The position numbers and the translations under genes are program-made. A model generated the notes under the pieces. That model was given only the letters and a program-made list of their open reading frames with translations. It was not told the origin of the DNA and did not search any database. From contig CAZQKP010000002.1 in the NCBI GenBank assembly GCA_964594005.1, positions 1 through 33,274 on the forward strand: a stretch of DNA of 33,274 bases, read 5' to 3'. Of the stretch, positions 561 through 29,495 are shown one piece after another; positions within the stretch are counted from its first letter, which is position 1, and each line of letters begins with the position of its first letter. Source of the DNA: an uncultured Candidatus Saccharibacteria bacterium (lineage in GTDB: Bacteria; Patescibacteriota; Minisyncoccia; Phycocordibacterales; DATDWN01).

Positions 561-3077
561 TTATTTCTTCTCGTTCATTAATCGGTTATGTTCATCTGTC
601 CCAATTAACCCACAGTTTTTGTATTTTTTACCGGAACCGCAAGGACAAGGGTCATTGCGACCGATCTTTTCGCCTGATTCATTTTTGGGCGCAGGCTTAG
701 CCTGAGATGGGTTACTTTCCCCAAGATTAAAGACATTTTCTCTGCCTTCGGTTAGCTTTATTTGTTCATTGTATAGTTTTATGTTTGGTACAATCTGTGG
801 AATTAACTTTATGATTTCTTGATTAATTGAAATTTCCATTTCTTTAAACAAACGTAGGCCCTCTTTTTTATATTCCACTAATGGATCTCTTTGGCCATAA
901 GCCCGCAAATTGACCGAAGATCTCATGTAATCCATAACCTCCAAGTGTTCCACCCAAAACATATCTGTGGCTTGTAGAATTACTCTTCTAAGTGTTTCGA
1001 AATAAGCTTCGTCCGCTTTTTTCAGTTTTTCTTCTATGATTTCTCTATCTTTGTCAGTTGCTTCCGAAAGGAGATCCTCGATATATCTTTTAACTTCCTC
1101 GTTACTCCCGGTTAATACGGTTTTTCTCCTTTCATACATTACTTTGCGTTGAAAATTTAAGACATCATCAAATTCCAAAACATGTTTGCGGGCATCAAAG
1201 TTAAACCCCTCTATCTTTTCCTGAGCACTTTCTAACGCATTAGTAATCATTCTATTTTGAATTGGCTCATCTTCTTTAATTCCCAGTTTACCCATCATAT
1301 TTTTGATAGAATCTCCACCGAAGACTCGCATAAGGTGGTCATCCAAGGAAACAAAAAACTGAGTCCCGCCGGGATCGCCTTGGCGGCCCGATCTACCACG
1401 AAGCTGATTGTCTATTCGGCGTGCATCATGTCTCTCTGTGCCCAAAACAAATAATCCGCCCGAGGACTTAACTTTTTCATAAGTTTCGGAGGTACCGGGA
1501 TTGCCGCCTATTTTTATATCTACACCTCTACCAGCCATATTTGTTGCAATAGTAACAGCTCCGGGTCTACCGGCTTGCGCAATAATTTCTCCTTCACGAG
1601 TGTGATTTTTGGCATTTAAAATTTCGTGGGGAATACCTTCCGCTTTTAAATACTGAGAAAGCATTTCATTTTTTTCAATGGAGACCGTGCCAATCAAAAC
1701 CGGCTGACCATTCATATATCTATTCTTTACTTCTTTGGAGATTGCCTTGTATTTACCAGCCTCAGTTTGGAAAATCATATCGTTGTCGTCGATTCTAGCT
1801 ACTGTCTTATTAGTTGGGACGGAAATTACATTCAAACCATAAACTTTGTAAAATTCTTCTTTGGAAGTCATCGCAGTACCTGTCATGCCTGAAAGTTTTT
1901 TATAAAGTCTGAAATAATTTTGGAAAGTAACTGAAGCAAATGTTTTAGATTCTTTTTGAATTGGTAAATGCTCCTTGGCTTCAATGGCCTGATGTAAGCC
2001 CTCCGACCATCGCCTACCAGGCTGAAGTCTCCCCGTAAATTCATCCACAATTACCACCTCTTCATCCTTAACAACATAATCTTTATCTTTCTTAAATAGC
2101 GCCTCTGCCCTCACCGCAGTTTCGAGATGATGTACATATTTAATACCTTTTTCGGTATAAATATTTTCAATACCTAAAAGCTCTTCTGCTTTGCTTATGC
2201 CCGAATCAGTTAAAGCAATGGATCTAAATTTTTCATCAATTGTGTAGTGCTCTCCCGATTGGAGCTCACCTGCAATTTTGGCAAAGCGCACATAAAGCTC
2301 ATCCGATTCAGTAGTCGGAGCGGAAATAATAAGAGGCGTACGTGCTTCATCTATTAATATAGAGTCAATTTCATCTACTATTGCATAATTCAATTCTCTT
2401 TGACGCAACTTACCTCGCTCATACTCAATATTATCCCGCAAATAATCAAAACCAAACTCATTGTTTGTCCCATAAGTTATATCAGCAAGATATGCTTCTT
2501 TTCTAGTGACTGGGCGTAGAAATTCACTGTAAACCTTAAATGTGCCGGTTTCATCTCTTTTTTTATCTAATTCGGTGTGGGTGGGATCATACAGAAATGA
2601 TTCGTCGTGATTTATAGCTCCGACAGAAAGGCCAAGAAAGTTATAAATTTGACCCATTAGAACCGCATGAAGCCGGGAAAGATAATCATTTACCGTAATC
2701 AAATGTACACCCTTGCCTTCTAGCGCATTTAAATAAATTGGCAAAGTTGCAACCAGAGTCTTGCCTTCCCCAGTTCTCATTTCTGCAATACCACCTTGAT
2801 GCATAATAATTCCGCCTAAAATCTGGACATCAAAATGCCTCTCCTCCAAAGTCCTTTTGGCAGCCTCGCGAACCAAGGCAAATGCCTCCGGTAAAATATC
2901 ATCCAGAGTTTCACCTTTATTTAACCTTACCCTGAATTCATCCGTCTTTGCTTTTAATTCTTCATCTTTAAGCAAGGCAAGACCACTCTCGAGAGAGTTT
3001 ATTTTTTCTAAGATTGGCTCGAGTTCTTGGAGTCTTTTGCTTGACTCGTCACCAAATATTTTGCCTAAAATTGACAT
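561..3077 (-). CDS. secA: Preprotein translocase ATPase SecA
   Basis: 838 aa. N-terminus MSILGKIFGD..SKR, Walker/DEAD-like VDEIDSILIDEARTPLIIS, motor-domain motifs GTERHDARRIDNQLRGRSGRQGDPG, and the C-terminal zinc-binding tail CPCGSGKKYKNCG. Confidence 0.97.
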   Translation of the reverse strand: MSILGKIFGDESSKRLQELEPILEKINSLESGLALLKDEELKAKTDEFRVRLNKGETLDDILPEAFALVREAAKRTLEERHFDVQILGGIIMHQGGIAEMRTGEGKTLVATLPIYLNALEGKGVHLITVNDYLSRLHAVLMGQIYNFLGLSVGAINHDESFLYDPTHTELDKKRDETGTFKVYSEFLRPVTRKEAYLADITYGTNNEFGFDYLRDNIEYERGKLRQRELNYAIVDEIDSILIDEARTPLIISAPTTESDELYVRFAKIAGELQSGEHYTIDEKFRSIALTDSGISKAEELLGIENIYTEKGIKYVHHLETAVRAEALFKKDKDYVVKDEEVVIVDEFTGRLQPGRRWSEGLHQAIEAKEHLPIQKESKTFASVTFQNYFRLYKKLSGMTGTAMTSKEEFYKVYGLNVISVPTNKTVARIDDNDMIFQTEAGKYKAISKEVKNRYMNGQPVLIGTVSIEKNEMLSQYLKAEGIPHEILNAKNHTREGEIIAQAGRPGAVTIATNMAGRGVDIKIGGNPGTSETYEKVKSSGGLFVLGTERHDARRIDNQLRGRSGRQGDPGGTQFFVSLDDHLMRVFGGDSIKNMMGKLGIKEDEPIQNRMITNALESAQEKIEGFNFDARKHVLEFDDVLNFQRKVMYERRKTVLTGSNEEVKRYIEDLLSEATDKDREIIEEKLKKADEAYFETLRRVILQATDMFWVEHLEVMDYMRSSVNLRAYGQRDPLVEYKKEGLRLFKEMEISINQEIIKLIPQIVPNIKLYNEQIKLTEGRENVFNLGESNPSQAKPAPKNESGEKIGRNDPCPCGSGKKYKNCGLIGTDEHNRLMNEKK

Positions 3078-3723: not shown

Positions 3724-5904
3724 TTAGCTATTTTGAATTTGTTTTATGTAAGCCTCACCTTGAGCTTTAAAATCAGGATTATCCGCAATAATTCCCCTAA
3801 TAACTTCTATAGCTTTTTGTTTTTGACCAACAGTTGCGTAAGCAGAAGCTAAGGTAAGCCTGGTTTGAACATCTTTTGGATTTTTTGCTAAGCGAGCATT
3901 AATAATGGCGAAAACATTATTATAATCTCCCATATCCGCATAAGCCTTGAGAAATCTGTCATCATTAACAATTGTGTCTTGATTTATTTTGCCCGAGAGA
4001 TCTAGCAAGGCCGCAGCATTTCTAGAATAGATAGCGCCCAGAGCATATATAACCTGAGACTCGGTAGCGGCAGTATCTAGCTCGTATGCCTGTTTAAATA
4101 GATCGAAGGCTTTGGCCACATCTTTTTTACCTAAATATGAAGTACCCAATTCAAAAAAGATAGTTTGTTTCTTGGGAGATTCCTCTAATGCTCTGGTTAA
4201 ATAATTAATCGCGTCATCATATTGACTGAAGCGATTAAAGAAGCTGCCGGCGAAAACTAAATACCGAGCATCATGAGGAGTTTGATTTACTTTCTCAACA
4301 ATTTTATCTTTGGCCAAATTGTAAAACTCTTGTTTAACAGTATCTGGTGAATTAGAACCGAGAACTTGGGCTGCAGTTTGAACAAGTTGTTCCACTGCCT
4401 CACTGTTACCAAAAGAATTGTAATCAAATACTTGTTTAAATAAGCTGAGATTTTTCTCCAGATCACCTTGGGGGCTAATGGACTGGATCAGAGTTTCATT
4501 GGCGGAAATAGCAGGCACATTTACAAAATAAACGATCAACACCGTGCAAATAACAGTAACGGGCAAAACAACATAATTAATTACATCTTTGGAAAAAGAC
4601 GTCGTGTTAAATTTACTTACCCCAGCCCTACCTTCTACCGTGACTGCATGAACAAAAGCTAGTACAGCAAAAAATAGAACGTAGCTAGTAAGATTGTCAA
4701 AAACAAAGATGTTGTGAAAAACATAAGCCGCAATCATACCGGTAAGCAAACTTTTTTGGGAAAGCGAAAATGTACTCTCCTTTCGCCAGATGTAATAAAG
4801 CAATGCAAGGTAAATACTAAAGTAAGCTAAAAAGCCAATTAAACCTCCAGCAATAAGCCAATCTAGGAAAATATCGTGGGTACGATCAAACCATTGCTCC
4901 TGACCATACATCCGCGGGTCATAATATTTATTAAATACAAAATTAAAACTCTCTTGCCCCCAACCAACTAAAACCGTTTTGGGACTTTGAATAAAACCTT
5001 TTATCGCCATAGGCCAAACATAGTATCGTCCCTGACCTTTTATTTCTGCGAGACCAATGGAAGAGAATCTAGACAAAACCAAACTATTTTTAACAAAGTT
5101 GGTATTTTTAATTGCCAAGAAACCTCCAACGAGTAGAAAAATCGCAACTAGTGCAGAAACTGCAACTTTTTTTAACTTTTTGTTTTGTCTCTCCCTAAAT
5201 CCAACGATTAAACCAAATAAAACTAAACCACCAATTAAACCCAAGATTGCTCCTCGAGTTGCTGTGTAATAAAGAACGATTGAATTTAAAATAGCGGCCA
5301 AAGAATACAACCATTTTTGCCAAGGCTTGCTGGAAGTTGTAAACAAGTACAGACAAAGGAAAATATGAAAAACTAAATAAATTGCAAAATATGAAGCATT
5401 CCCAAAAGTTGCGTCCACCCGATCCCCGCCTTGGTTAATTACTAATTTGCCACCTATTTGAAGCAAGCCATAGATAGAGGTTATAACCGATACAGCGATT
5501 GAAACATTAAAATAACGGTGCCACCATTCTTTGGTATTTAGAACAGAAGAGGCGACCAAATAATAGAGGAGCAAATGCGCTAAGAGCACGTAGCCTTCCA
5601 TTCTTTCAAAATTACTCCAAAAGCTCTTGTAAGGATTGGCGCTGAAAATATCTGCAATTAACATCGCTCCCATAAACAAAAGAATACATCTTGTGACCCA
5701 AGTATCTTTTGGCCTAAATTGGGGCGCAAGAAAAGCTAATACAACATAAATACCAAAAACGATTTCAATTAATATCCTGAAGGTAAACCCCTTTCCAGTA
5801 ATGAAAGGAAAGAACATCGTCTGTGGCACAATAAACGGAATGAAAAGAACACCAAATAAACCCAAAATAATCGTATATTTTAGAAAATTTTCCAGCGTTT
5901 TCAT
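3724..5904 (-). CDS. O-antigen ligase/polymerase-like (Wzy_C-type) multi-pass membrane domain fused to C-terminal TPR repeats
   Basis: 726 aa. The N-terminal ~460 aa are polytopic, with the ligase-like segment YYTATRGAILGLIGGL. The C-terminal ~250 aa show TPR-like repeats (ALEESPKKQTIFFELGTSYLGKKDVAKAFDLFKQAYELD; LAKNPKDVQTRLTLASAYATVGQKQKAIEVIRGIIADNPD). Confidence 0.8.
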   Translation of the reverse strand: MKTLENFLKYTIILGLFGVLFIPFIVPQTMFFPFITGKGFTFRILIEIVFGIYVVLAFLAPQFRPKDTWVTRCILLFMGAMLIADIFSANPYKSFWSNFERMEGYVLLAHLLLYYLVASSVLNTKEWWHRYFNVSIAVSVITSIYGLLQIGGKLVINQGGDRVDATFGNASYFAIYLVFHIFLCLYLFTTSSKPWQKWLYSLAAILNSIVLYYTATRGAILGLIGGLVLFGLIVGFRERQNKKLKKVAVSALVAIFLLVGGFLAIKNTNFVKNSLVLSRFSSIGLAEIKGQGRYYVWPMAIKGFIQSPKTVLVGWGQESFNFVFNKYYDPRMYGQEQWFDRTHDIFLDWLIAGGLIGFLAYFSIYLALLYYIWRKESTFSLSQKSLLTGMIAAYVFHNIFVFDNLTSYVLFFAVLAFVHAVTVEGRAGVSKFNTTSFSKDVINYVVLPVTVICTVLIVYFVNVPAISANETLIQSISPQGDLEKNLSLFKQVFDYNSFGNSEAVEQLVQTAAQVLGSNSPDTVKQEFYNLAKDKIVEKVNQTPHDARYLVFAGSFFNRFSQYDDAINYLTRALEESPKKQTIFFELGTSYLGKKDVAKAFDLFKQAYELDTAATESQVIYALGAIYSRNAAALLDLSGKINQDTIVNDDRFLKAYADMGDYNNVFAIINARLAKNPKDVQTRLTLASAYATVGQKQKAIEVIRGIIADNPDFKAQGEAYIKQIQNS

Positions 5905-21086: not shown

Positions 21087-21881
21087 TTATTTAATCTTAA
21101 GCAAAAAACCTTTTATTCCACCAAAATCATAGAGTTCTTCGCTATATAAATCCTGCCAATAAGACTGAAATCTTTTTTTGGTACGTAAATATCCACTGAA
21201 AATAATCTTGGTATTAGAAGTTTGCCATTTAAATTCTCGCCACTTGCGATTAAACACCGAAAGAATAGTCAGAAAAGAAGATGGAATAAAAATAATCTTA
21301 TTTACTCTCGCTTGATGCATTTTTTTAAATATGTCTCGCCATTTCTCGTCCGAAAAACTTGCATCAACTCTGTACATAAGGCAAGCAGATGAATCACCTA
21401 TGTATTTTTGGTTTATATCTCTCCAATTACCGTCGACAATATCAAACTCAATAATCTCATCTGCTTCGGCAAAGACTGATTTCAAGAGTTCTACATTGGT
21501 CGGCGCATATTCAGAACAAACAATTTTAAGGCTGGGGTTAATTTTTTTTATTTGATACTCCAGACCTGCCCCCCCTACCCCCACTGAGAAAATTTTATTT
21601 ATTTTTTCCTTGACGAGTAGACTATTTACATCTCTAGCCCTTTTTATAAGTCCAGAATCTTGTCCATCTTTTTTTATTTCTGCGTCAGCTGCTTTAATCC
21701 ACTCTTTCCTGTTTTTGGAAATTGAAAATTGGGGATGAGTTGTACGTAAGGCATCCCAAGACTCGGCAGAATTTAATTCATTGTCCTTAAATAGAGAAGC
21801 AGAGTAACCGAAAGTTTGGTAATGCTTTATGGTCAAAGAGGCTGGAATAGAATTAATGTATTTTAAAAATTTGTTTATCAT
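21087..21881 (-). CDS. Hypothetical protein with a Rossmann/SAM-methyltransferase-like glycine motif
   Basis: IFSVGVGGAGLEY is followed by IVCSEY and FDIVDG, in the usual order of class I methyltransferase motifs I-III. The evidence is weak. Confidence 0.35.
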   Translation of the reverse strand: MINKFLKYINSIPASLTIKHYQTFGYSASLFKDNELNSAESWDALRTTHPQFSISKNRKEWIKAADAEIKKDGQDSGLIKRARDVNSLLVKEKINKIFSVGVGGAGLEYQIKKINPSLKIVCSEYAPTNVELLKSVFAEADEIIEFDIVDGNWRDINQKYIGDSSACLMYRVDASFSDEKWRDIFKKMHQARVNKIIFIPSSFLTILSVFNRKWREFKWQTSNTKIIFSGYLRTKKRFQSYWQDLYSEELYDFGGIKGFLLKIK

Positions 21882-21887
21882 TATTGC

Positions 21888-22217
21888 TTAAAATCTGGGC
21901 AGAATCTCAACTACATCACCTACTTGCCAATTTGCAACTGGTTTTAAAAGTTCTACTACTTCAATATGTTTCGGATGTTTTTTAAAATCTTCAAATGACT
22001 TCTGATCTTTGAAAATAGCAATCTCGACCAGGTGAACACCTTTTCTTAAATCCATATTTGGTTGTACAGACCAAAAAAGTATGCCGGCGTTTTTCCCTCC
22101 ACAGTCATCCCCCAGAGTTGCGTATCGAGCTGCAATCTCTTGTTTTATTTCTTCACTCGCTTCGGGCAGAAAAGAAATGAAAATTACATGGTGTAGATAT
22201 GATTCCTTTATTTCCAT
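21888..22217 (-). CDS. Dabb (stress-responsive alpha/beta barrel) domain protein
   Basis: 109 aa. The protein has HHVIFISF near its N-terminus and ...FEDFKKHPKHIEVVELL later, typical of Dabb-family proteins. Confidence 0.7.
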   Translation of the reverse strand: MEIKESYLHHVIFISFLPEASEEIKQEIAARYATLGDDCGGKNAGILFWSVQPNMDLRKGVHLVEIAIFKDQKSFEDFKKHPKHIEVVELLKPVANWQVGDVVEILPRF

Positions 22218-22224
22218 GAGTCAC

Positions 22225-22253
22225 AATATACCTTAAAATTTTCAATTTGACAA
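22225..22253 (-). promoter_or_regulatory. Sigma-70-like promoter TTGTCA-17-TATATT, 7 nt upstream of the Dabb ATG (leaderless geometry)
   Basis: The minus strand reads TTGTCAaattgaaaattttaaggTATATTgtgactcATG. Confidence 0.45.
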
Positions 22254-22274
22254 GTAGGGATAATGTGTTAGCAT
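22247..22274 (+). promoter_or_regulatory. Candidate divergent promoter TTGACA-16-TAGCAT for the HD-domain gene
   Basis: TTGACA at 22247-22252 shares its bases with the minus-strand TTGTCA. TAGCAT is at 22269-22274. The SD GGAGGTG at 22304-22310 precedes ATG 22313. Confidence 0.35.
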
Positions 22275-22312
22275 TGAGACAGAAATCGGCCGCATTGGCC
22301 ATTGGAGGTGCG

Positions 22313-23020
22313 ATGGAGATTGACAGAAGCCGGATCCTCCTTACATTCGGGAGGCTCCGACAAGAAAACTGGGCATTCTATGAGGAGGTCAAGCGCCTCC
22401 ACACACAGAGCCCATCGAAGCGTCAGAGAGGCCATGGCATGGAACATAACGTGCACGTGGCCCTGCACGCTCTCGACATCATGCAGAGCGATTACGCTGG
22501 GCAGGAGCGTTTGGAGAAGCTGGTTTTCCTGGCAGCTATCGCCCACTCCCTCGATCGCCTGTTCGAGAGGGGCGCCGACAACAGCTTCGCGAACCTCGTA
22601 CACAATTGCCTCGAGCTGACCGACCTCAATGAGAGCGACAAGTCTGTCGTACTCGAATCAGTCCTCGATCATGAAAAGAAAAACGACGAGGGACGAATCG
22701 ACACGCGGGTCACAGTGATCCTCAAGGATGCCGACCGCGTTGCCAACATGGGTGCGGCTCTGGCGATCCGGAGCGGGCAATTCAGACCGGATATCCCGCC
22801 GTACGAGATGGCGCACCTGCGGACATCGAACCCTGCGTCGACCTACCGGGATCCCTCGTCGGTTTTCGAGGACTTGCGTGGCTGCTTCGAGTGGATCGAT
22901 TGGATGCGAACCGAGCGTGGTTACGCACTCATCGTCCAGAAAGCTGCGAACCTCCGCAAATACCTCGAGACGGTCGCCGACGAATTCGAGTTCATCGGCA
23001 TGATCCGTGTCGAGATCTGA
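22313..23020 (+). CDS. HD-domain phosphohydrolase (YedJ/YpgQ-like pattern), high-GC foreign gene
   Basis: GHGMEHNVHVA, LAAIAHSLDR and ILKDADRVANMGAALAIRSG occur in the usual order of HD-superfamily motifs, but HS replaces the canonical HD. Third codon positions are almost all G/C in this frame. ATG 22313 lies 2 nt after GGAGGTG. The tracked start at 22247 is the TTG of a -35 box. Confidence 0.6.
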   Translation: MEIDRSRILLTFGRLRQENWAFYEEVKRLHTQSPSKRQRGHGMEHNVHVALHALDIMQSDYAGQERLEKLVFLAAIAHSLDRLFERGADNSFANLVHNCLELTDLNESDKSVVLESVLDHEKKNDEGRIDTRVTVILKDADRVANMGAALAIRSGQFRPDIPPYEMAHLRTSNPASTYRDPSSVFEDLRGCFEWIDWMRTERGYALIVQKAANLRKYLETVADEFEFIGMIRVEI

Positions 23021-23027
23021 CACAGCT

Positions 23028-23068
23028 GGCCTGCACCCTACGGGGTGCAGGCCGGTTTCTATTTTCTT
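23028..23068 (+). terminator. Intrinsic terminator of the HD gene
   Basis: Perfect 11-bp stem GGCCTGCACCC / GGGTGCAGGCC with a TACG loop, followed by GGTTTCTATTTTCTT. Confidence 0.85.
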
Positions 23069-23106: not shown

Positions 23107-23784
23107 ATGAAAAGGCTCTCCATAATTATCCCCGCCAAAAATGAGGCGAAAACAATTGGTGAAATAATAAGAAAAGTAAAAGAAATTAATTTACCTCTTT
23201 GGGAAAAAGAGATAATTGTAATTGATAATAATTCCGCTGATGGAACAGAAAACATCTCGCGGTCATTGGGGGTTACAACTCTGAAAGAAATGGGACCTGG
23301 TAAAGGTTCAGCAGTAAAAAAGGGGCTCGCGAACGCAACAGGCGACTTTATTCTTATTCAAGATGCGGACCTGGAATATAATCCGGAGGACATCCCCCTA
23401 CTTTTAGATAAAGCTAAAGATAAAACTGCTGTGTTTGGTTCTCGAAATTTAAAATCGCACCGTAAGGGCACATGGTTAGCTCGAGCCGGAGTTTGGTTTT
23501 TAACTAAAGAATTCAATTTGCTGTTCAGAACAAAACTAACTGATTTGTGGACATGCTACAAACTCTTCCCCAAAGAAGCGGCAAATTTATTTGCAGCTGG
23601 CGGCTTTGAATCGGAATTAACTTTTTCAGCCAACCTCATAAAAAATAAATTTATGATTGAAGAAGTATCAATTTCTTACAATAACCCCAGGACCGAAGCG
23701 GAAGGCAAAAAAATTCATTATATGGACGGAATACGAGGGATTTTTGTTTTACTGAAAGATAGATTTATAAACCCAAAAATTTAA
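23107..23784 (+). CDS. GT2 glycosyltransferase (DPM1-like, soluble type)
   Basis: Motifs IIIPAKNEAKTI, IDNNSADGT, GKGSAVKKG and IQDADLEYNP. Low-GC host composition. Confidence 0.88.
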   Translation: MKRLSIIIPAKNEAKTIGEIIRKVKEINLPLWEKEIIVIDNNSADGTENISRSLGVTTLKEMGPGKGSAVKKGLANATGDFILIQDADLEYNPEDIPLLLDKAKDKTAVFGSRNLKSHRKGTWLARAGVWFLTKEFNLLFRTKLTDLWTCYKLFPKEAANLFAAGGFESELTFSANLIKNKFMIEEVSISYNNPRTEAEGKKIHYMDGIRGIFVLLKDRFINPKI

Positions 23785-27439: not shown

Positions 27440-27477
27440 TTGATATCTATTGATAAATCCTAAAATTATGTTATCTT
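27440..27477 (+). promoter_or_regulatory. Host-composition promoter candidates upstream of the DUF218 gene
   Basis: Two options are TTGATA (27440-45)-15-TAAAAT (27461-66), or TTGATA (27450-55)-16-TATCTT (27472-77). The SD GAGGTG at 27487-27492 lies 4 nt before ATG 27497. Confidence 0.3.
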
Positions 27478-27496
27478 AGCGCGAGAGAGGTGCCGC

Positions 27497-28102
27497 ATGG
27501 CATTTATTGACTGGCTTGCAAGAAAGTGGGCAGTCTCAGATAACCCGCCCACTCACGCCGACCTGATCTTCGCGGTTGCCCACGGGAGTGTCAGAGAACG
27601 ACCGTCAAAAGGTCTGGAGGCTGTTGTAAGCAAGACCGAAGAGCTCACGAAGAGATACGCAGGGATGATTTCCCAGCCCTTCGTCGCCTTCGGAGAATTC
27701 ACGTACTCGGGGCCAACATCAAGGGATGTGGAAGCGGAATTCAAGCTCGATCACTTTCCCAAGGGCCGCTTCATCGGGCTTGTGGCAAGCACAACCGAAG
27801 AAGCAATGAAAGCCTACGACCTCGCGGCCAGGCTTCCGTGTGACCCGCGCAAGATCGTGATTGTGACCGATGAGTCACATTCGCGACGCTGCCGCCTGAT
27901 CTGGCAGGAATTCTTTCCGCTAGCAGAGATCTTCATCGTAACCGTCCCCCTCCGAGACGTTGTAGAGAGAAATAGCCCGATGTGGGCATACCGCGCCGCC
28001 TGGCGCATTCTCCTGCTCAACATCGCGCTCACACCGTTGTTCGCCGCGATGAAGCGCGAGCAAATGGAGAAGCTCTGCAAATTCCACCAACCCACATTCT
28101 AA
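27497..28102 (+). CDS. DUF218 (YdcF/SanA/ElyC-like) domain protein, high-GC foreign gene
   Basis: ADLIFAVAHGS, ASTTEEAMKAYDL and IVIVTDESHSRRCRLIW match the order and character of DUF218 motifs. A C-terminal hydrophobic helix is AAWRILLLNIALTPLFAAM. Third codon positions are G/C-rich. Confidence 0.6.
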   Translation: MAFIDWLARKWAVSDNPPTHADLIFAVAHGSVRERPSKGLEAVVSKTEELTKRYAGMISQPFVAFGEFTYSGPTSRDVEAEFKLDHFPKGRFIGLVASTTEEAMKAYDLAARLPCDPRKIVIVTDESHSRRCRLIWQEFFPLAEIFIVTVPLRDVVERNSPMWAYRAAWRILLLNIALTPLFAAMKREQMEKLCKFHQPTF

Positions 28103-28111
28103 CCACTTGTA

Positions 28112-28145
28112 CCCGCTGCCAGAAATGGCAGCGGGTTTTGTTATT
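28112..28145 (+). terminator. Intrinsic terminator of the DUF218 gene
   Basis: Perfect 10-bp stem CCCGCTGCCA / TGGCAGCGGG with a GAAA loop, followed by TTTTGTTATTT. The T-tract runs into the stop codon (28141-28143) of the convergent methyltransferase gene. Confidence 0.85.
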
Positions 28146-28779
28146 TCTTCGCCACAAAAAGCATTTGTCCTGCAAAAGGTTTAACCGGTGATTTTAAATA
28201 AGTTCGAACAATAAGAGGGTGAAGTGGCATTAATTTGGGACGGGAAGCCAAAGAAAAAGGCAAAAAACGTGGTTTCTCTAATTCAATATTAAAGCCAAAA
28301 CTTATTAGAAACGCTTTTAAGGAAACATCTGAGAAAACTTTTTTATGGGTTGGATCATCAAAATAAGTTTTGGAAGATAATCTAAAATTTGGCTGCATTA
28401 ATATAAGTCTGCCTTTCTTTTTTAAAACTCTATTTACTTCTTTCATGGTTAAAGAAAGCTCGTAGTCGGTTAAATGCTCAAAAAGATTGCTAGCAAAAAC
28501 TACGTCCACCGAATCTGTTGGGATTTTACTCATATCGGTTACGGACGACTCGATAGTCTTAACATCCTTATCTGCGTATTTTTTAAAATCAGGTGAGTGA
28601 TCTAGGGCAATTTTATTTTGCGCATCTACATTATTAATAAAATCACAATAACCTGCACCTAAATCTACAACTGTACCTTTTGCTGGAATGAATTTCTTTA
28701 AATATGAAACAATTTCTTTCCAAACTACGGAGCGATCGTTGTTCCAAACATATCTAGATTTGTAATAAGAGTCTTTCAT
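28141..28779 (-). CDS. Class I SAM-dependent methyltransferase
   Basis: Motifs VVDLGAGYCDF and VFASNLFEHL...GRLILMQPN. Confidence 0.85.
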   Translation of the reverse strand: MKDSYYKSRYVWNNDRSVVWKEIVSYLKKFIPAKGTVVDLGAGYCDFINNVDAQNKIALDHSPDFKKYADKDVKTIESSVTDMSKIPTDSVDVVFASNLFEHLTDYELSLTMKEVNRVLKKKGRLILMQPNFRLSSKTYFDDPTHKKVFSDVSLKAFLISFGFNIELEKPRFLPFSLASRPKLMPLHPLIVRTYLKSPVKPFAGQMLFVAKK

Positions 28780-29495
28780 TAAATGTTTCTGAAGCGGTAG
28801 TAAATAATCATTGGTATCATTTTAGCGCCTAAAACTGCGGCTTTCCAGATACTGCCTGTATACATCGACTGCCCGATTCGCGGTTTAAACATAATTGGAA
28901 TTTCAATCGGCATAAATCCTTTCTTGATTGTCCAAATCATAAATTCGGGAGACCATTTGCCATCGCCACTAGACAATGGAAAAAGTGGAATAATTTTTTG
29001 AAGCGCTTCGCGGGAAATAAGTTTGTAAGTGCAACCTACATCAGTGAATGTAGAACCGTTGTGAATAATTTCTAAAAGTTTTGCCACGGCCCAGTTGCCA
29101 AAACGCACCGGAAAGGGCATGAAAGCTCCAGACCAAATACTGGCTCTAGAAGTCCTGGTACCAAAAACCACCGGAAAATTTTCGCTGTAGAGTAAAAATT
29201 TGTGCAAATCATTGGGATCAAATGTACCATCTGCCTCAACCATAACAATTAAGTCTCCCCTTGCTTCTTTTAGCCCCCGCATGAGCGCATGGCCGTAGCC
29301 TTGATGCTCACTTTCGAGTACCCTTCTCGCTTTTGTTTTTTCAATCTCCTCCTTTGTATTACCCAATGCATTATTATCAACCGCGATAACTTCGTCTACA
29401 AAACCAGTCGCAAAAAAACCGTTGATAACCGACCTTACAGAATCTGCTTCATTATATGTACCAAAAACTACGCTTACTTTTTTATTCTTATACAT
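28779..29495 (-). CDS. GT2 glycosyltransferase (DPM1-like)
   Basis: Motifs VVFGTYNEADSV, VDNNALGNT, GYGHALMRG and MVEADGTFDP. Its TAA shares one base with the downstream ATG. Confidence 0.88.
   Translation of the reverse strand: MYKNKKVSVVFGTYNEADSVRSVINGFFATGFVDEVIAVDNNALGNTKEEIEKTKARRVLESEHQGYGHALMRGLKEARGDLIVMVEADGTFDPNDLHKFLLYSENFPVVFGTRTSRASIWSGAFMPFPVRFGNWAVAKLLEIIHNGSTFTDVGCTYKLISREALQKIIPLFPLSSGDGKWSPEFMIWTIKKGFMPIEIPIMFKPRIGQSMYTGSIWKAAVLGAKMIPMIIYYRFRNI

What the first reader, a model, noticed from the sequence alone, without database searches (positions are those of the whole stretch)
22268..23068. High-GC island 1: an HD-domain gene with its own SD and terminator, inserted head-on in a low-GC glycan operon
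Composition jumps abruptly. Line 22441-22500 has 35/60 G+C, against 21/60 for line 21901-21960 in the adjacent Dabb gene. In the 22313-23020 frame nearly every third codon position is G or C. The ORF track also shows five stacked Arg/Ala/Pro-rich ORFs over this stretch, a high-GC artefact seen only here and in island 2. The gene has a canonical GGAGGTG SD 2 nt before ATG 22313, whereas the host genes have none. It ends with a perfect 11-bp GC hairpin plus T-tract, and it is transcribed against the flow of the surrounding minus-strand operon. The product has the HD-superfamily motif order (H..H, then the HD position, then DAD..GA), but the canonical HD reads HS. I interpret this as a recent horizontal acquisition from a high-GC donor that has not yet ameliorated. 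For a small AT-rich, possibly episymbiotic genome, a high-GC host organism would be an obvious donor candidate.
Basis: partly seen in the sequence, partly recalled or inferred. Interest (0 to 1): 0.72.

Follow-up and report, generated by a model that had tools for sequence, protein, structure and literature searches.

The report
Persistently GC-rich single-gene module, Patescibacteria
The GC-rich gene is real, but it is not a fresh import: the same self-contained gene sits at the same spot, still GC-rich, in several long-diverged AT-rich relatives, which simple "not yet blended in" gene transfer does not explain.

Summary
Window 22277-23062 is 58% GC against 35.1 +/- 2.7% background. Its edges fall at a predicted promoter and at the strongest terminator in the region.

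The gene (22313-23020, +) encodes an HD-fold protein of the YpgQ/YedJ/SE1688 type. The canonical HD dyad reads HS, and this is a family trait. About 270 clusters are found, and every member that carries an organism name is from Patescibacteria.

The "recent, unameliorated import from a high-GC host" reading is not supported.
- The five closest homologues (54-62% identity) show low-GC DNA on every flank that can be read. Three of them lie next to the same Dabb gene.
- All are GC-rich (GC3 0.74-0.80), although four-fold sites are at or near saturation.
- A distant homologue in a Saccharibacteria MAG shows the same pattern (GC3 0.89).
- Island 2 behaves the same way.
- GC-rich genes in these loci carry their own promoter, Shine-Dalgarno site and terminator, while host genes lack Shine-Dalgarno sites.

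My reading is that this is an old, slot-conserved, autonomous expression module whose GC-richness is actively maintained. The main rival is repeated replacement from an unsampled GC-rich Patescibacterial gene pool. The cause of the persistence is unresolved.

The parts
22247..22274 (+). Predicted sigma-70-type promoter of the GC-rich gene: -35 TTGACA (22247-22252), 16-nt spacer, TG-extended -10 TAGCAT (22269-22274). It is AT-rich and host-like.
   Evidence: Top-scoring promoter-like site in 20-30 kb, 10 of 12 matches plus TG. The same TTGACA/TTGACT-N16/17-TGn-TAnnnT layout lies upstream of the orthologues in L001, L003, L006, L013 and L016. It is a consensus match only; the transcription start is not mapped.
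22277..22312 (+). Predicted GC-rich 5' leader of about 36 nt, with a small GGCC/GGCC hairpin (22288-22300) and the Shine-Dalgarno sequence GGAGGTG (22304-22310).
   Evidence: Sequence read directly and MFE fold. Strong AGGAG/GGAGG sites also precede every GC-rich orthologue and other GC-rich genes in related loci, but not their AT-rich neighbours.
22313..23020 (+). CDS of 235 aa: a stand-alone HD-fold protein of the YpgQ/YedJ/SE1688 type, with H-S-x-D in place of HD. GC 0.58, GC3 0.74.
   Evidence: Pfam HD reaches only E 0.17 but spans the full length. Family profile against PDB: 2qgs 1.3e-12, 3dto, 2pq7, 2pjq, YpgQ 2e-8, YedJ 5e-8. AlphaFold model pLDDT 78 and pTM 0.78, with HD hydrolases as the top Foldseek hits at probability 1.0. 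Invariant G40 H45 H78 D139 D141 R153 Q156 across 26 diverse members. Among 155 aligned sequences (153 library proteins plus the window and L013 copies): HS 86, HN 52, HD 3, other 6, gapped 8.
23024..23067 (+). Intrinsic terminator: a 15-bp stem (11 perfect G+C-rich pairs), a UACG tetraloop and an interrupted T tract. It reads as a terminator on the + strand only.
   Evidence: Best terminator-like site in the scan and part of the MFE fold. Orthologues in L003 and L004 keep a near-identical hairpin with UUCG loops.
21888..22217 (-). Low-GC Dabb (alpha/beta-barrel) gene, divergent from the HD-like gene. It is the conserved neighbour and probable functional partner. Its own promoter lies at 22253-22225, and the mRNA is probably leaderless.
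   Evidence: Pfam Dabb 1.4e-10. The same neighbour occurs in L001, L003 and L006. A GC-rich Dabb-like gene lies next to the HD-like gene in L013. rhaM lies next to it in L014, L018 and L020. Promoter scan.
27450..28146 (+). Island 2, a second module of the same class. Promoter TTGATA-N16-TG-TATCTT (27450-27477), SD GAGAGG, CDS 27497-28102 (201 aa, weak DUF218 match, GC 0.56, GC3 0.67), and an 11-bp hairpin terminator at 28111-28136.
   Evidence: The only homologue (63-64% identical by the two aligners) sits in the same slot of a collinear 10-gene block in L008/L009 and is also GC-rich.

Best explanation
Island 1 is an old, slot-conserved, self-contained expression module, not a recent import.

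Anatomy. An AT-rich consensus promoter (TTGACA-N16-TGnTAGCAT) drives a monocistronic, GC-rich transcript. The transcript has a leader of about 36 nt with a strong Shine-Dalgarno site. It encodes a 235-aa HD-fold protein and ends at a UNCG-loop intrinsic terminator.

Protein. It belongs to an H-[S/N]-x-D variant of the stand-alone YpgQ/YedJ/SE1688-type HD hydrolases. Every member of this variant that carries an organism name is from Patescibacteria. The family is embedded in nucleotide-sugar and glycan gene clusters and is usually paired with a small Dabb or RhaM protein. I infer that it is a metal-dependent phosphohydrolase or nucleotide-binding enzyme serving sugar activation for the surrounding glycan locus, with an altered metal site.

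Composition. The high GC is a long-standing, actively maintained property of this gene. It is shared by a small class of similar modules in these loci: DUF218-like (island 2), Dabb-like, NUDIX, SDR and FdtA genes. In genomes whose ordinary genes are AT-rich and lack Shine-Dalgarno sites (many look leaderless), these modules use a second 'dialect': GC-rich codons, Shine-Dalgarno-led initiation, and their own promoter and terminator.

Most likely driver (inferred, not shown). Selection, or GC-biased conversion, acts over the transcribed unit. One possibility is selection for a stable, structured, RNase-resistant mRNA, which would then need a Shine-Dalgarno site to initiate. Module alleles are also occasionally exchanged between related lineages.

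Shown: the anatomy, the fold and family, the conserved synteny, synonymous sites at or near saturation with persistent GC, and the link between Shine-Dalgarno sites and GC. Inferred: the enzymatic role and the force that maintains GC.

On the confidence figure: the core claims (a real island, an autonomous HD-variant gene of a Patescibacterial family, position and GC-richness old and shared, not a recent import from a high-GC host) stand at about 0.85. The figure of 0.5 applies to the whole statement, including in-situ maintenance of the GC.
For: 1. Conserved slot and conserved GC. The orthologues in L001/L002, L003 and L006 lie beside the same Dabb gene. L001 and L003 also carry the 264-aa neighbour (g264). 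Flanks are 0.32-0.38 GC and the genes are 0.56-0.61 GC, with GC3 of 0.74-0.80 where computed. In L004/L005 only the downstream flank can be read, and it is low-GC; that gene is also GC-rich by the sliding profile. A distant family member in a Saccharibacteria MAG (L013) lies next to the g264 orthologue at GC3 0.89 in a 37% GC contig.

2. Four-fold sites between all copies are at or near saturation (identity 0.32-0.48), yet GC4 stays at 0.66-0.82. The flanks are saturated too. By my estimate, a neutral two-state decay towards the host GC3 of about 0.25-0.30 predicts GC3 below about 0.35-0.47 over these divergences.

3. Island 2 is 63% identical to its only homologue, inside a collinear 10-gene block whose members are 42-89% identical. 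That fits co-divergence. Both copies remain GC-rich, with GC3 of 0.67 and 0.64.

4. There is no amelioration signature. GC3-implied GC is at least as high as GC1-implied GC in all the high-GC copies.

5. The HD-like gene is GC-elevated relative to its neighbours in about 10 of 12 independent contexts across the family. These include L011, L014, L018, L020 and L022, at 0.45-0.51 against about 0.34-0.40.

6. No donor is visible. Every clade member for which low-GC flanking DNA can be read is embedded in it. Only L007, a 736-bp all-GC-rich contig, is uninformative. There were no hits in phages, plasmids, IMG/VR or GTDB representatives by pattern scan. Every source name that gives an organism is Patescibacterial.

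7. The module syndrome is consistent. Promoter, SD and terminator are found for every GC-rich gene inspected. Host genes lack SD. Within L018 and L020 only the GC-elevated genes have SD. L016, a native 56% GC genome, is itself SD-poor, so the SD is not simply a donor trait.

8. Islands from two distant host groups share a codon-junction dinucleotide signature (r 0.72). That signature differs from the hosts' signature, which is r 0.70-0.90 among hosts and r <= 0.01 between islands and hosts.

9. Fold and family. Glycan context.
Against: - Holding GC3 at 0.74-0.89 against an AT-biased background needs a per-site bias of roughly 4Nes = 3 by my estimate. That is very strong for small-genome symbionts.
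- Island codon usage resembles that of a native 56% GC contig carrying a family member (L016). RSCU r is 0.74-0.84, with a shared CTC >> CTG preference. This fits import from such genomes.
- Gene trees are incongruent with the flanks. Dabb is 83% identical between L001 and L003 while the HD-like protein is 64%. Dabb is 61% identical between L003 and L006 while the HD-like protein is 73%. Allele classes cross-cut the flank clades. Modules therefore do move.
- The slot content varies: SDR + HD in L001, FdtA in L008/L009, and HD present in L013 but absent in L012.
- The islands have not taken on the host dinucleotide signature.
- mRNA structure beyond what composition gives is not consistent. Synonymous-shuffle z-scores are -3.2, -2.2, -0.2 and -1.0, and host controls give +2.0 and -1.7.
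- Other soluble sugar enzymes (GDP-mannose dehydratase, DegT) and SecA in the window are AT-rich. Neither 'soluble enzyme' nor 'housekeeping' explains the class.
- No transcript data exist.
Confidence: 0.5

Rival explanations
1. Recurrent, slot-specific replacement from a GC-rich Patescibacterial gene pool. Self-contained promoter-gene-terminator modules evolve in higher-GC Patescibacteria such as the 56% GC genome of L016. They are repeatedly imported into, or used to overwrite, the resident copy in AT-rich relatives faster than amelioration can act. Overwriting could work through short identical stretches inside the conserved gene.
For: - Island codon usage matches L016 (RSCU r 0.74-0.84, CTC >> CTG) and is anti-correlated with the host.
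- L016 carries a native family member with the same promoter type, the same opposite-strand monocistronic layout and a terminator.
- HD-like allele classes cross-cut the flank clades.
- Slot content varies between loci.
- Family members show a continuum of GC excess, from 0.38 to 0.65, as expected for imports of different ages.
- Identical stretches of 19-32 nt exist between some alleles.
- The islands have not acquired the host dinucleotide signature.
- Published work finds that most gene transfer in Patescibacteria is between Patescibacteria (PMC12455944).
Against: - No GC-rich-genome carrier of the window clade was found among about 15 billion proteins. Every clade member with readable low-GC flanks is embedded in them.
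- L016 is only 36% identical to the window protein, and the island junction signature correlates only weakly with L016 (r 0.23-0.35).
- This model needs at least 5 independent hits into the same slot for island 1, and parallel hits for island 2, whose divergence simply matches that of its flanks.
- There are no integrases, tRNAs, direct repeats or attC-like sites.
- The AT-rich and GC-rich flanks share no nucleotide homology that could guide recombination.
- The SD is not a trait of the L016-type genome.
Confidence: 0.3
2. GC-biased gene conversion at a recombination hot spot. The modules sit in the variable part of a glycan locus that is often exchanged between strains. Repeated heteroduplex repair biased towards G/C then drives their composition upward without any selection on the transcript.
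For: There is evidence of allele exchange among lineages. All three codon positions and the untranslated leader and terminator are GC-enriched, which fits a force acting on DNA rather than on codons. Established knowledge: recombining bacterial genes tend to have higher GC3 (Lassalle et al. 2015, from memory).
Against: The composition edges are sharp, within about 20 nt, and coincide with the promoter and terminator. The adjacent glycosyltransferase genes in the same variable locus stay at 0.30-0.37 GC. The size of the effect, GC3 0.25 to 0.75-0.89, is far beyond reported bacterial gBGC effects.
Confidence: 0.1
3. One reading: a single recent acquisition by this genome from a high-GC organism, possibly the physical host of an episymbiont, that has not yet ameliorated.
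For: The gene shows a strong compositional and codon-usage contrast with its contig. It has its own SD and terminator, and the high GC ends abruptly. The window's own allele could still be a recent replacement, because no relative closer than 62% identity is sampled.
Against: - The same gene, in the same slot and with the same high GC, occurs in at least 4 other diverged lineages. Synonymous sites between the copies are at or near saturation.
- Every family member that carries an organism name is Patescibacterial. No Actinobacterial or other high-GC non-Patescibacterial homologue was seen. The nearest solved structures are Firmicute YpgQ-type proteins at about 15% identity.
- There is no amelioration lag of GC3.
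- The promoter is host-type, and its -35 box overlaps that of the neighbouring Dabb promoter.
Confidence: 0.04
4. Assembly chimera: a GC-rich fragment from another organism was spliced into an AT-rich contig.
For: Reads could not be mapped here, so this cannot be excluded directly.
Against: The same AT-rich / GC-rich / AT-rich arrangement recurs with orthologous genes in independent assemblies from NCBI, ENA and Logan built from different samples (L001-L006, L008/L009, L012, L013, L018-L021). The junctions fall at a functional-looking promoter and terminator.
Confidence: 0.01

Closest known systems
Stand-alone HD-domain hydrolases of the YpgQ / YedJ / SE1688 (2qgs) / BH2835 (3dto) type
   Same: The alignment is collinear over the full length, about 205 of 225 residues. 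The fold is all-helical HD. The first His motif, the His of the HD dyad and the DADR motif (LKDADR in this clade, against DADRLDAIGA in the solved proteins) are conserved.
   Different: The Asp of the HD dyad is Ser here. Among 155 aligned sequences (153 library proteins plus the window and L013 copies) it is HS in 86, HN in 52 and HD in 3, with a conserved Asp two residues later. The window protein misses the Pfam HD threshold, at 12.6 against 22 bits. Every organism-named member is Patescibacterial, and the gene lies in glycan or nucleotide-sugar clusters. No activity is known. YpgQ is a Mn-dependent NTP pyrophosphohydrolase (from memory).
Phage 'morons' (Hendrix/Juhala): promoter-ORF-terminator modules of atypical composition inserted between genes
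   Same: The anatomy matches: a sigma-70 promoter, a single ORF, a factor-independent terminator, composition unlike the neighbours, and insertion between transcription units. The definition of a moron is from memory.
   Different: The module lies in a chromosomal glycan locus with no phage genes. There is no homologue in 50,697 phage records or in IMG/VR. Unlike a fresh moron, it is conserved in position and composition across deeply diverged lineages.
Classical horizontally acquired genomic islets that ameliorate over time (Lawrence and Ochman model)
   Same: GC, codon usage and translation-initiation signals are atypical. Presence and absence are patchy at larger distances: L012 lacks the HD-like gene that L013 has, and L008/L009 carry a different gene in the slot.
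   Different: There is no GC3 lag, no mobility genes, no tRNA and no repeats. The closest homologues are in compositionally unlike (AT-rich) genomes. High GC persists although synonymous sites are at or near saturation.
AT-rich islands kept AT-rich for xenogeneic-silencer (H-NS/Lsr2) control, for example Salmonella pathogenicity islands
   Same: This is a precedent for atypical composition being held for long periods by selection rather than by recency (established knowledge; see also PMC8476142, listed but not read in detail).
   Different: The polarity is opposite: GC-rich in an AT-rich genome. The units are single genes, and no GC-specific regulator is known or was found here.

Membership tests
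HD-domain superfamily (Pfam PF01966) | All-alpha HD fold | tested here: met
   AlphaFold2 model pLDDT 77.9 and pTM 0.78. Top Foldseek PDB hits are 2pjq, 3dto, YpgQ 5dqw, 2pq7 and 2qgs, at probability 1.00 and TM 0.5-0.74. Family profile against PDB sequences: 2qgs E 1.3e-12 and seven more HD hydrolases.
HD-domain superfamily (Pfam PF01966) | H...HD...D metal-ligand motif | tested here: not met
   H45, H78 and D139/D141 are invariant, but the dyad reads H78-S79. Counts among 155 aligned sequences (153 library proteins plus the window and L013 copies): HS 86, HN 52, HD 3, other 6, gapped 8. A nearly invariant D81 follows.
HD-domain superfamily (Pfam PF01966) | Score above Pfam's gathering cut-off | tested here: not met
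   The window protein scores 12.6 bits against a cut-off of 22 (E 0.17), although the match spans profile positions 3-116 of 116. Twelve of 26 diverse family members hit PF01966 at E <= 0.01.
HD-domain superfamily (Pfam PF01966) | Metal-dependent phosphohydrolase activity | not testable with these tools
   This needs biochemistry: metal content and activity on NTPs, NDP-sugars and sugar phosphates.
Recently acquired, unameliorated genomic island | Atypical base composition and codon usage | tested here: met
   GC 0.58 against 0.351 +/- 0.027. RSCU correlation with host genes is r = -0.58.
Recently acquired, unameliorated genomic island | Absent from, or at host-like composition in, related genomes at the same locus | tested here: not met
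   The gene is present and GC-rich beside Dabb in L001, L003 and L006, and beside the g264 orthologue in L013. L004 also carries a GC-rich copy, but only its downstream flank can be read. Differences in content appear only at larger distance (L012, L008/L009).
Recently acquired, unameliorated genomic island | Closest homologues in a compositionally matching donor lineage | tested here: not met
   All closest homologues lie in AT-rich contigs. The only GC-rich native context found, L016, is 36% identical.
Recently acquired, unameliorated genomic island | Mobility hallmarks (integrase, tRNA target, flanking repeats) | tested here: not met
   No tRNA in the window. No significant direct or inverted repeats at the borders. 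No integrase-like gene is adjacent.
Phage moron | Promoter + ORF + intrinsic terminator of atypical composition | tested here: met
   by consensus scans. Transcript ends are not mapped.
Phage moron | Resides between genes of a phage or prophage | tested here: not met
   The neighbours are glycan-biosynthesis genes. No homologue in phage records or IMG/VR.
Integron gene cassette | 3' attC site with RYYYAAC / GTTRRRY cores, arrayed next to an integrase | tested here: not met
   The 3' hairpins are simple G+C stems with UNCG loops followed by T tracts. No GTTRRRY core is seen by inspection of the sequences. There is no integrase, and the modules are dispersed and carry their own promoters.
Anti-phage defence HD nucleases | Match to a known defence-system protein model | tested here: not met
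   No PADLOC hit for the HD-like, DUF218-like, Dabb or 264-aa proteins at E <= 0.01.

The most novel reading that the evidence does not exclude
AT-rich Patescibacteria that lack Shine-Dalgarno sites may keep a second, selectively maintained 'expression dialect'. This would be a small set of single-gene modules whose whole transcript is GC-rich. Each has its own consensus promoter, a strong Shine-Dalgarno site and a stable terminator. Their composition would be held for hundreds of millions of years against the genome's mutational bias, for example to give RNase-resistant, privileged or condition-independent expression. That would be a bacterial case of gene-specific compositional equilibrium that mimics recent horizontal transfer.
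Probability: 0.3. Interest if true: 0.8.

Novelty: new variant of a known kind. Interest (0 to 1): 0.6.

Why it matters
Atypical GC is the standard marker for recent horizontal transfer, and amelioration is used as a clock. Here single genes stay 20-30 GC points above their genome at the same chromosomal slot. The lineages that carry them are so diverged that synonymous sites are at or near saturation. No GC-rich donor is visible among about 15 billion proteins.

If the GC is maintained in place, composition-based island callers will mislabel such genes in candidate-phyla genomes. It would also mean that a strong gene-specific force, selection on the transcript or biased conversion, acts in ultra-small symbionts thought to be ruled by drift. 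If instead the modules are constantly re-imported, that reveals a targeted cassette traffic among Patescibacteria with no known machinery.

Either outcome can be tested with population metagenomes and with the Saccharibacteria genetics now available. The finding also defines an uncharacterised H-[S/N]-x-D branch of HD hydrolases tied to cell-surface glycan synthesis in these bacteria. Every member of that branch that carries an organism name is from Patescibacteria.

Tried and rejected
- Antisense or overlapping coding. The stacked ORFs reflect the lack of stops in antisense frame 0 of GC-rich genes. They are not conserved: L004 has 5 stops and L018 has 4. Rejected.
- Selected mRNA structure. 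The whole-transcript z of -7.4 is largely due to the terminator. CDS-only synonymous-codon shuffles give -3.2, -2.2, -0.2 and -1.0 for four HD-like genes, and +2.0 and -1.7 for host genes. Inconclusive.
- A 16-nt long-range pairing at 22678/22852 is not conserved in orthologues. Taken as chance.
- Known RNA families and tRNAs: none in the window.
- Defence system: no PADLOC hit.
- Mobile element borders: no meaningful direct or inverted repeats. The 3' hairpins are not attC-like.
- Phage, plasmid or viral carriage: no hits.
- GTDB species representatives by pattern scan: no HD-like hit with the close-clade patterns. L011 and L013 carry distant members that were found only through the neighbouring gene.
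- The JGI metagenome scan returned only a duplicate of L003.
- 'Soluble sugar enzymes are GC-rich': rejected, because GDP-mannose dehydratase and DegT are AT-rich.
- 'Opposite-strand genes are GC-rich': rejected. The adjacent plus-strand GT2 is 0.37 GC, and the NUDIX module in L013 runs in the same direction as its neighbours.
- Taxon of the GC-rich contig L016: could not be determined. One cluster look-up was wasted on wrong minus-strand coordinates.
- Dabb against RhaM at sequence level: no similarity. Their shared alpha/beta-barrel fold is from memory only.
- Literature: four full-text queries found no description of this pattern.
- Expression in a GC-rich host cell after transfer of DNA or RNA: considered, but there is no evidence at all for it.
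Full report
OBSERVATION

The composition jump is real and sharp. Window 22277-23062 is 58.0% GC. The rest of the window is 35.1%. Background 700-nt windows give 0.351 +/- 0.027 with a maximum of 0.417. At 20-nt resolution the rise is at about 22270-22285 and the fall at about 23060.

The ORF from ATG 22313 to 23020 has GC1/2/3 of 0.61/0.37/0.74. The 28 host genes have GC3 of 0.26-0.38. GGAGGTG lies two nt before the ATG. The hairpin at 23024-23057 has 15 pairs, 11 of them perfect, a UACG loop and a T tract, and it is the best terminator-like site in 20-30 kb. The five stacked ORFs exist, but they are a by-product of composition and are not conserved.

A second island at 27478-28140 has the same build.

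One correction is needed. The gene lies between two minus-strand units, not inside one. It is divergent from the Dabb gene, which has its own promoter at 22253-22225, and it is followed by a plus-strand GT2 gene.

THE PROTEIN

Pfam HD reaches only E 0.17 (12.6 bits against a cut-off of 22), but the match covers the whole model. A profile of 26 family members hits eight solved stand-alone HD hydrolases over their full length: 2qgs SE1688 at 1.3e-12, then 3dto, 2pq7, 2pjq, 3djb, 3b57, YpgQ at 2e-8 and YedJ at 5e-8. An AlphaFold2 model (pLDDT 78, pTM 0.78) has the same proteins as its top Foldseek matches, at probability 1.0.

An exhaustive profile search finds 272 50%-identity clusters with E <= 1e-3. 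The HD dyad is replaced across the family. Among 155 aligned sequences (153 library proteins plus the window and L013 copies) the position reads HS in 86, HN in 52, HD in 3, something else in 6, and is gapped in 8. A conserved Asp follows two residues later. G40, H45, H78, D139, D141, R153 and Q156 are invariant across 26 diverse members.

Every source name that gives an organism is Patescibacterial: Paceibacterota, Gracilibacteria, Parcubacteria and 'Patescibacteria group'.

The gene always lies among nucleotide-sugar or glycan genes:
- GHMP kinase + nucleotidyltransferase + rhaM in L014, L018 and L020;
- NUDIX and epimerases in L015;
- dTDP-sugar isomerase, DegT and a dehydratase in L016;
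- Dabb, DegT, glycosyltransferases and PMT-type transferases in the window.

A small Dabb or RhaM protein is its neighbour in 8 of about 12 distinct contexts. I infer a phosphohydrolase or nucleotide-binding role in sugar activation, with an altered metal site. This is inference only.

THE ORGANISM

The window carries SecA, an O-antigen-ligase-like gene, a flippase and many glycosyltransferases, all AT-rich. The neighbouring 264-aa gene (g264) finds a 'Patescibacteria group bacterium' MAG at 67% identity and three 'Candidatus Saccharibacteria' MAGs at 53-54%.

WHY IT IS NOT A RECENT IMPORT

Only five homologues closer than 50% identity exist in 5.8 billion clusters, at 54-62% identity. Their contigs come from different samples and assemblers. 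Wherever flanks are visible they show the same picture.
- L001/L002, L003 and L006 carry the gene beside the same low-GC Dabb gene. L001 and L003 also carry the 264-aa neighbour.
- L004/L005 has an AT-rich downstream flank; its upstream flank is too short to read.
- The flanks are 0.32-0.38 GC and the genes are 0.56-0.61 GC, with GC3 of 0.74-0.80 where computed.

A distant family member (32% identical) in the Saccharibacteria MAG L013 lies next to the g264 orthologue at GC 0.65 and GC3 0.89, in a 37% GC contig.

Four-fold sites between all copies are at or near saturation. Identity is 0.32-0.48, against about 0.32 expected from composition, yet GC4 is 0.66-0.82 in every pair. Flank genes are saturated too, at GC4 of about 0.2. 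A simple two-state decay towards the host GC3 predicts, by my estimate, about 0.47 for the least diverged flank pair and about 0.3 for the rest. These values are far below those observed.

GC3 is also higher than GC1 would predict on the Muto-Osawa lines. That is the reverse of an amelioration lag.

Island 2 gives the cleanest case. Its only homologue sits in the same slot of a collinear 10-gene block in L008/L009. It is 63% identical, while the block's genes are 42-89% identical and the two immediate flanks are 66% and 77%. Both copies are GC-rich, with GC3 of 0.67 and 0.64, and synonymous sites are saturated.

Across the wider family the HD-like gene is GC-elevated relative to its neighbours in about 10 of 12 contexts. 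Examples:
- L018: 0.51 against 0.36-0.39.
- L014: 0.46 against 0.35-0.42.
- L020: 0.46 against 0.34-0.37.
- L022: 0.47 against about 0.38.
- L011: about 0.45 against 0.38.

It matches its genome only in L015 (0.38) and in the GC-rich contig L016 (0.58 in 0.56).

A CLASS OF MODULES

Every GC-rich gene inspected has the same anatomy: an AT-rich consensus promoter (TTGACA/TTGACT, 16-17 nt, TG-extended -10), a leader of about 35-50 nt, a strong AGGAG/GGAGG site, a GC-rich CDS, and a G+C hairpin with a T run. The genes inspected were the HD-like genes in seven loci, the DUF218-like genes in the window, L008, L012 and L013, the Dabb-like genes in L012 and L013, the NUDIX gene in L013, the SDR gene in L001 and the FdtA gene in L008/L009. 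In L001 the SDR and HD-like genes lie in tandem, and each has its own promoter and terminator.

Host genes lack Shine-Dalgarno sites, and several have a -10 box about 7 nt before the ATG, which suggests leaderless mRNAs. Within L018 and L020 only the GC-elevated genes have Shine-Dalgarno sites. The native GC-rich genome L016 is itself SD-poor. The SD therefore tracks the GC contrast rather than a donor habit. That fits the known need for an SD when the start region is structured, which is established knowledge.

Island codon usage is anti-correlated with the host (r about -0.6). It is similar among islands (r 0.65-0.85) and similar to L016 (r 0.53-0.84, with CTC >> CTG). The codon-junction (3,1) dinucleotide signature is shared among the three host sets (r 0.70-0.90) and between islands from two distant host groups (r 0.72). 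Islands do not resemble their hosts (r <= 0.01) and resemble L016 only weakly (r 0.23-0.35).

EVIDENCE THAT MODULES MOVE

Dabb is 83% identical between L001 and L003, but their HD-like proteins are only 64% identical. Dabb is 61% identical between L003 and L006, but the HD-like proteins are 73% identical. Two allele classes, {window, L001, L004} and {L003, L006, L007}, cross-cut the flank clades.

The slot upstream of GT2 holds HD in the window, SDR + HD in L001 and FdtA in L008/L009. L013 has the HD-like module where L012 has none.

No integrase, tRNA, border repeat or attC-like site is present. No copy was found in phages, plasmids or IMG/VR.

WEIGHING THE EXPLANATIONS

Some points are secure at about 0.85 confidence. 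The island is real. It is an autonomous HD-variant gene from a family whose organism-named members are all Patescibacterial. Its position and its GC-richness are old and shared.

What holds the GC up is not settled. I favour in-situ maintenance, by selection on the transcribed unit or by biased conversion. Three things point that way: the slot is conserved, island 2 co-diverges with its flanks, and no GC-rich-genome donors appear in a very large database. Against it, the required per-site bias is strong, and the islands keep a non-host signature with a codon dialect like L016.

The main rival is recurrent replacement from a GC-rich Patescibacterial pool. It explains the dialect and the incongruent trees. 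However, it needs many hits into the same slots with no visible mechanism or donors.

GC-biased conversion alone fits poorly with the sharp edges and the AT-rich neighbours. A chimera is excluded in practice by recurrence in independent assemblies.

COMPARISON WITH KNOWN THINGS

The protein is a divergent member of the YpgQ/YedJ-type HD hydrolases that fails the dyad motif. The unit has the anatomy of a phage 'moron' but is chromosomal, not in a prophage, and anciently conserved. It fails most criteria for a fresh genomic island and all criteria for an integron cassette. The nearest conceptual precedent for long-held atypical composition is the silencer-bound AT-rich island, with opposite polarity.

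Four literature queries found no description of conserved GC-rich single-gene modules in Patescibacteria. The one relevant paper reports that most transfers are between Patescibacteria and that old events escape detection through amelioration (PMC12455944).

VERDICT

I rate it as a new variant of a known kind, with interest 0.6.

Noticed in passing
window 27450-28146: Island 2 is a second GC-rich module. It encodes a 201-aa protein with a weak DUF218/YdcF-like match and has its own promoter, SD and terminator. Only one homologous cluster exists in 5.8 billion. It lies in the same slot of L008/L009 and is also GC-rich.
   Followed up: partly
window, upstream of the genes at 561-3077, 3724-5904, 21888-22217 and 28779-29495 (all minus strand): Host genes lack Shine-Dalgarno sites. 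Several have a TAnnnT -10 box about 7-12 nt before the ATG, which suggests leaderless or very short-leader mRNAs as the default in this organism.
   Followed up: partly
window 22247-22253: The -35 hexamers of the divergent HD-like (+) and Dabb (-) promoters overlap on the same 7 bp (TTGACAA / TTGTCAA). The two promoters might therefore exclude each other. The overlap is not conserved in L003.
   Followed up: partly
L013 3250-9900: A Saccharibacteria MAG carries four GC-rich modules within 7 kb of a 37% GC glycan locus: NUDIX, DUF218-like, Dabb-like and HD-like, with GC3 up to 0.89. L012 has the DUF218-like and Dabb-like modules but lacks the HD-like one.
   Followed up: partly
L007 1-170: This 736-bp contig is GC-rich throughout. 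Upstream of an N-terminally truncated HD-like gene, another reading frame looks like a histidine-kinase ATPase box (HQILLNLISNARIHG). It may be a chimera, a pseudogene or a different genomic context.
   Followed up: no
L008 5181-5510: The public gene call here (109 aa, minus strand, no Pfam match) appears to be on the wrong strand. The plus strand encodes the same FdtA-like 134-aa protein as L009 3308-3712.
   Followed up: yes
window 21087-21881 (-): A conserved 264-aa protein with no Pfam family. It has a VGVGGAG motif that resembles a Rossmann/SAM-binding loop. It is found next to the Dabb/HD-like genes from this lineage out to Saccharibacteria MAGs, at 53-69% identity.
   Followed up: no
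L018 2857-3183; L020 886-2010 and 3407-3730: In the GHMP-kinase-type clusters the rhaM gene, and in L020 the GHMP kinase as well, are also GC-elevated (0.45-0.47) and carry Shine-Dalgarno sites. Their neighbours are not GC-elevated and lack such sites.
   Followed up: partly
window 23765-23784: The plus-strand GT2 gene and the minus-strand PMT_2-type gene converge and overlap by 20 nt at their 3' ends.
   Followed up: no
P0012 (400 aa; library protein): One family member carries the HD-variant domain as the C-terminal half (residues 177-398) of a longer protein, so a fusion partner exists somewhere in the family.
   Followed up: no
window 22678-22693 / 22852-22867: A 16-nt, 94% complementary long-range inverted repeat lies inside the HD-like mRNA. 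It is not conserved in orthologues and is probably chance.
   Followed up: yes
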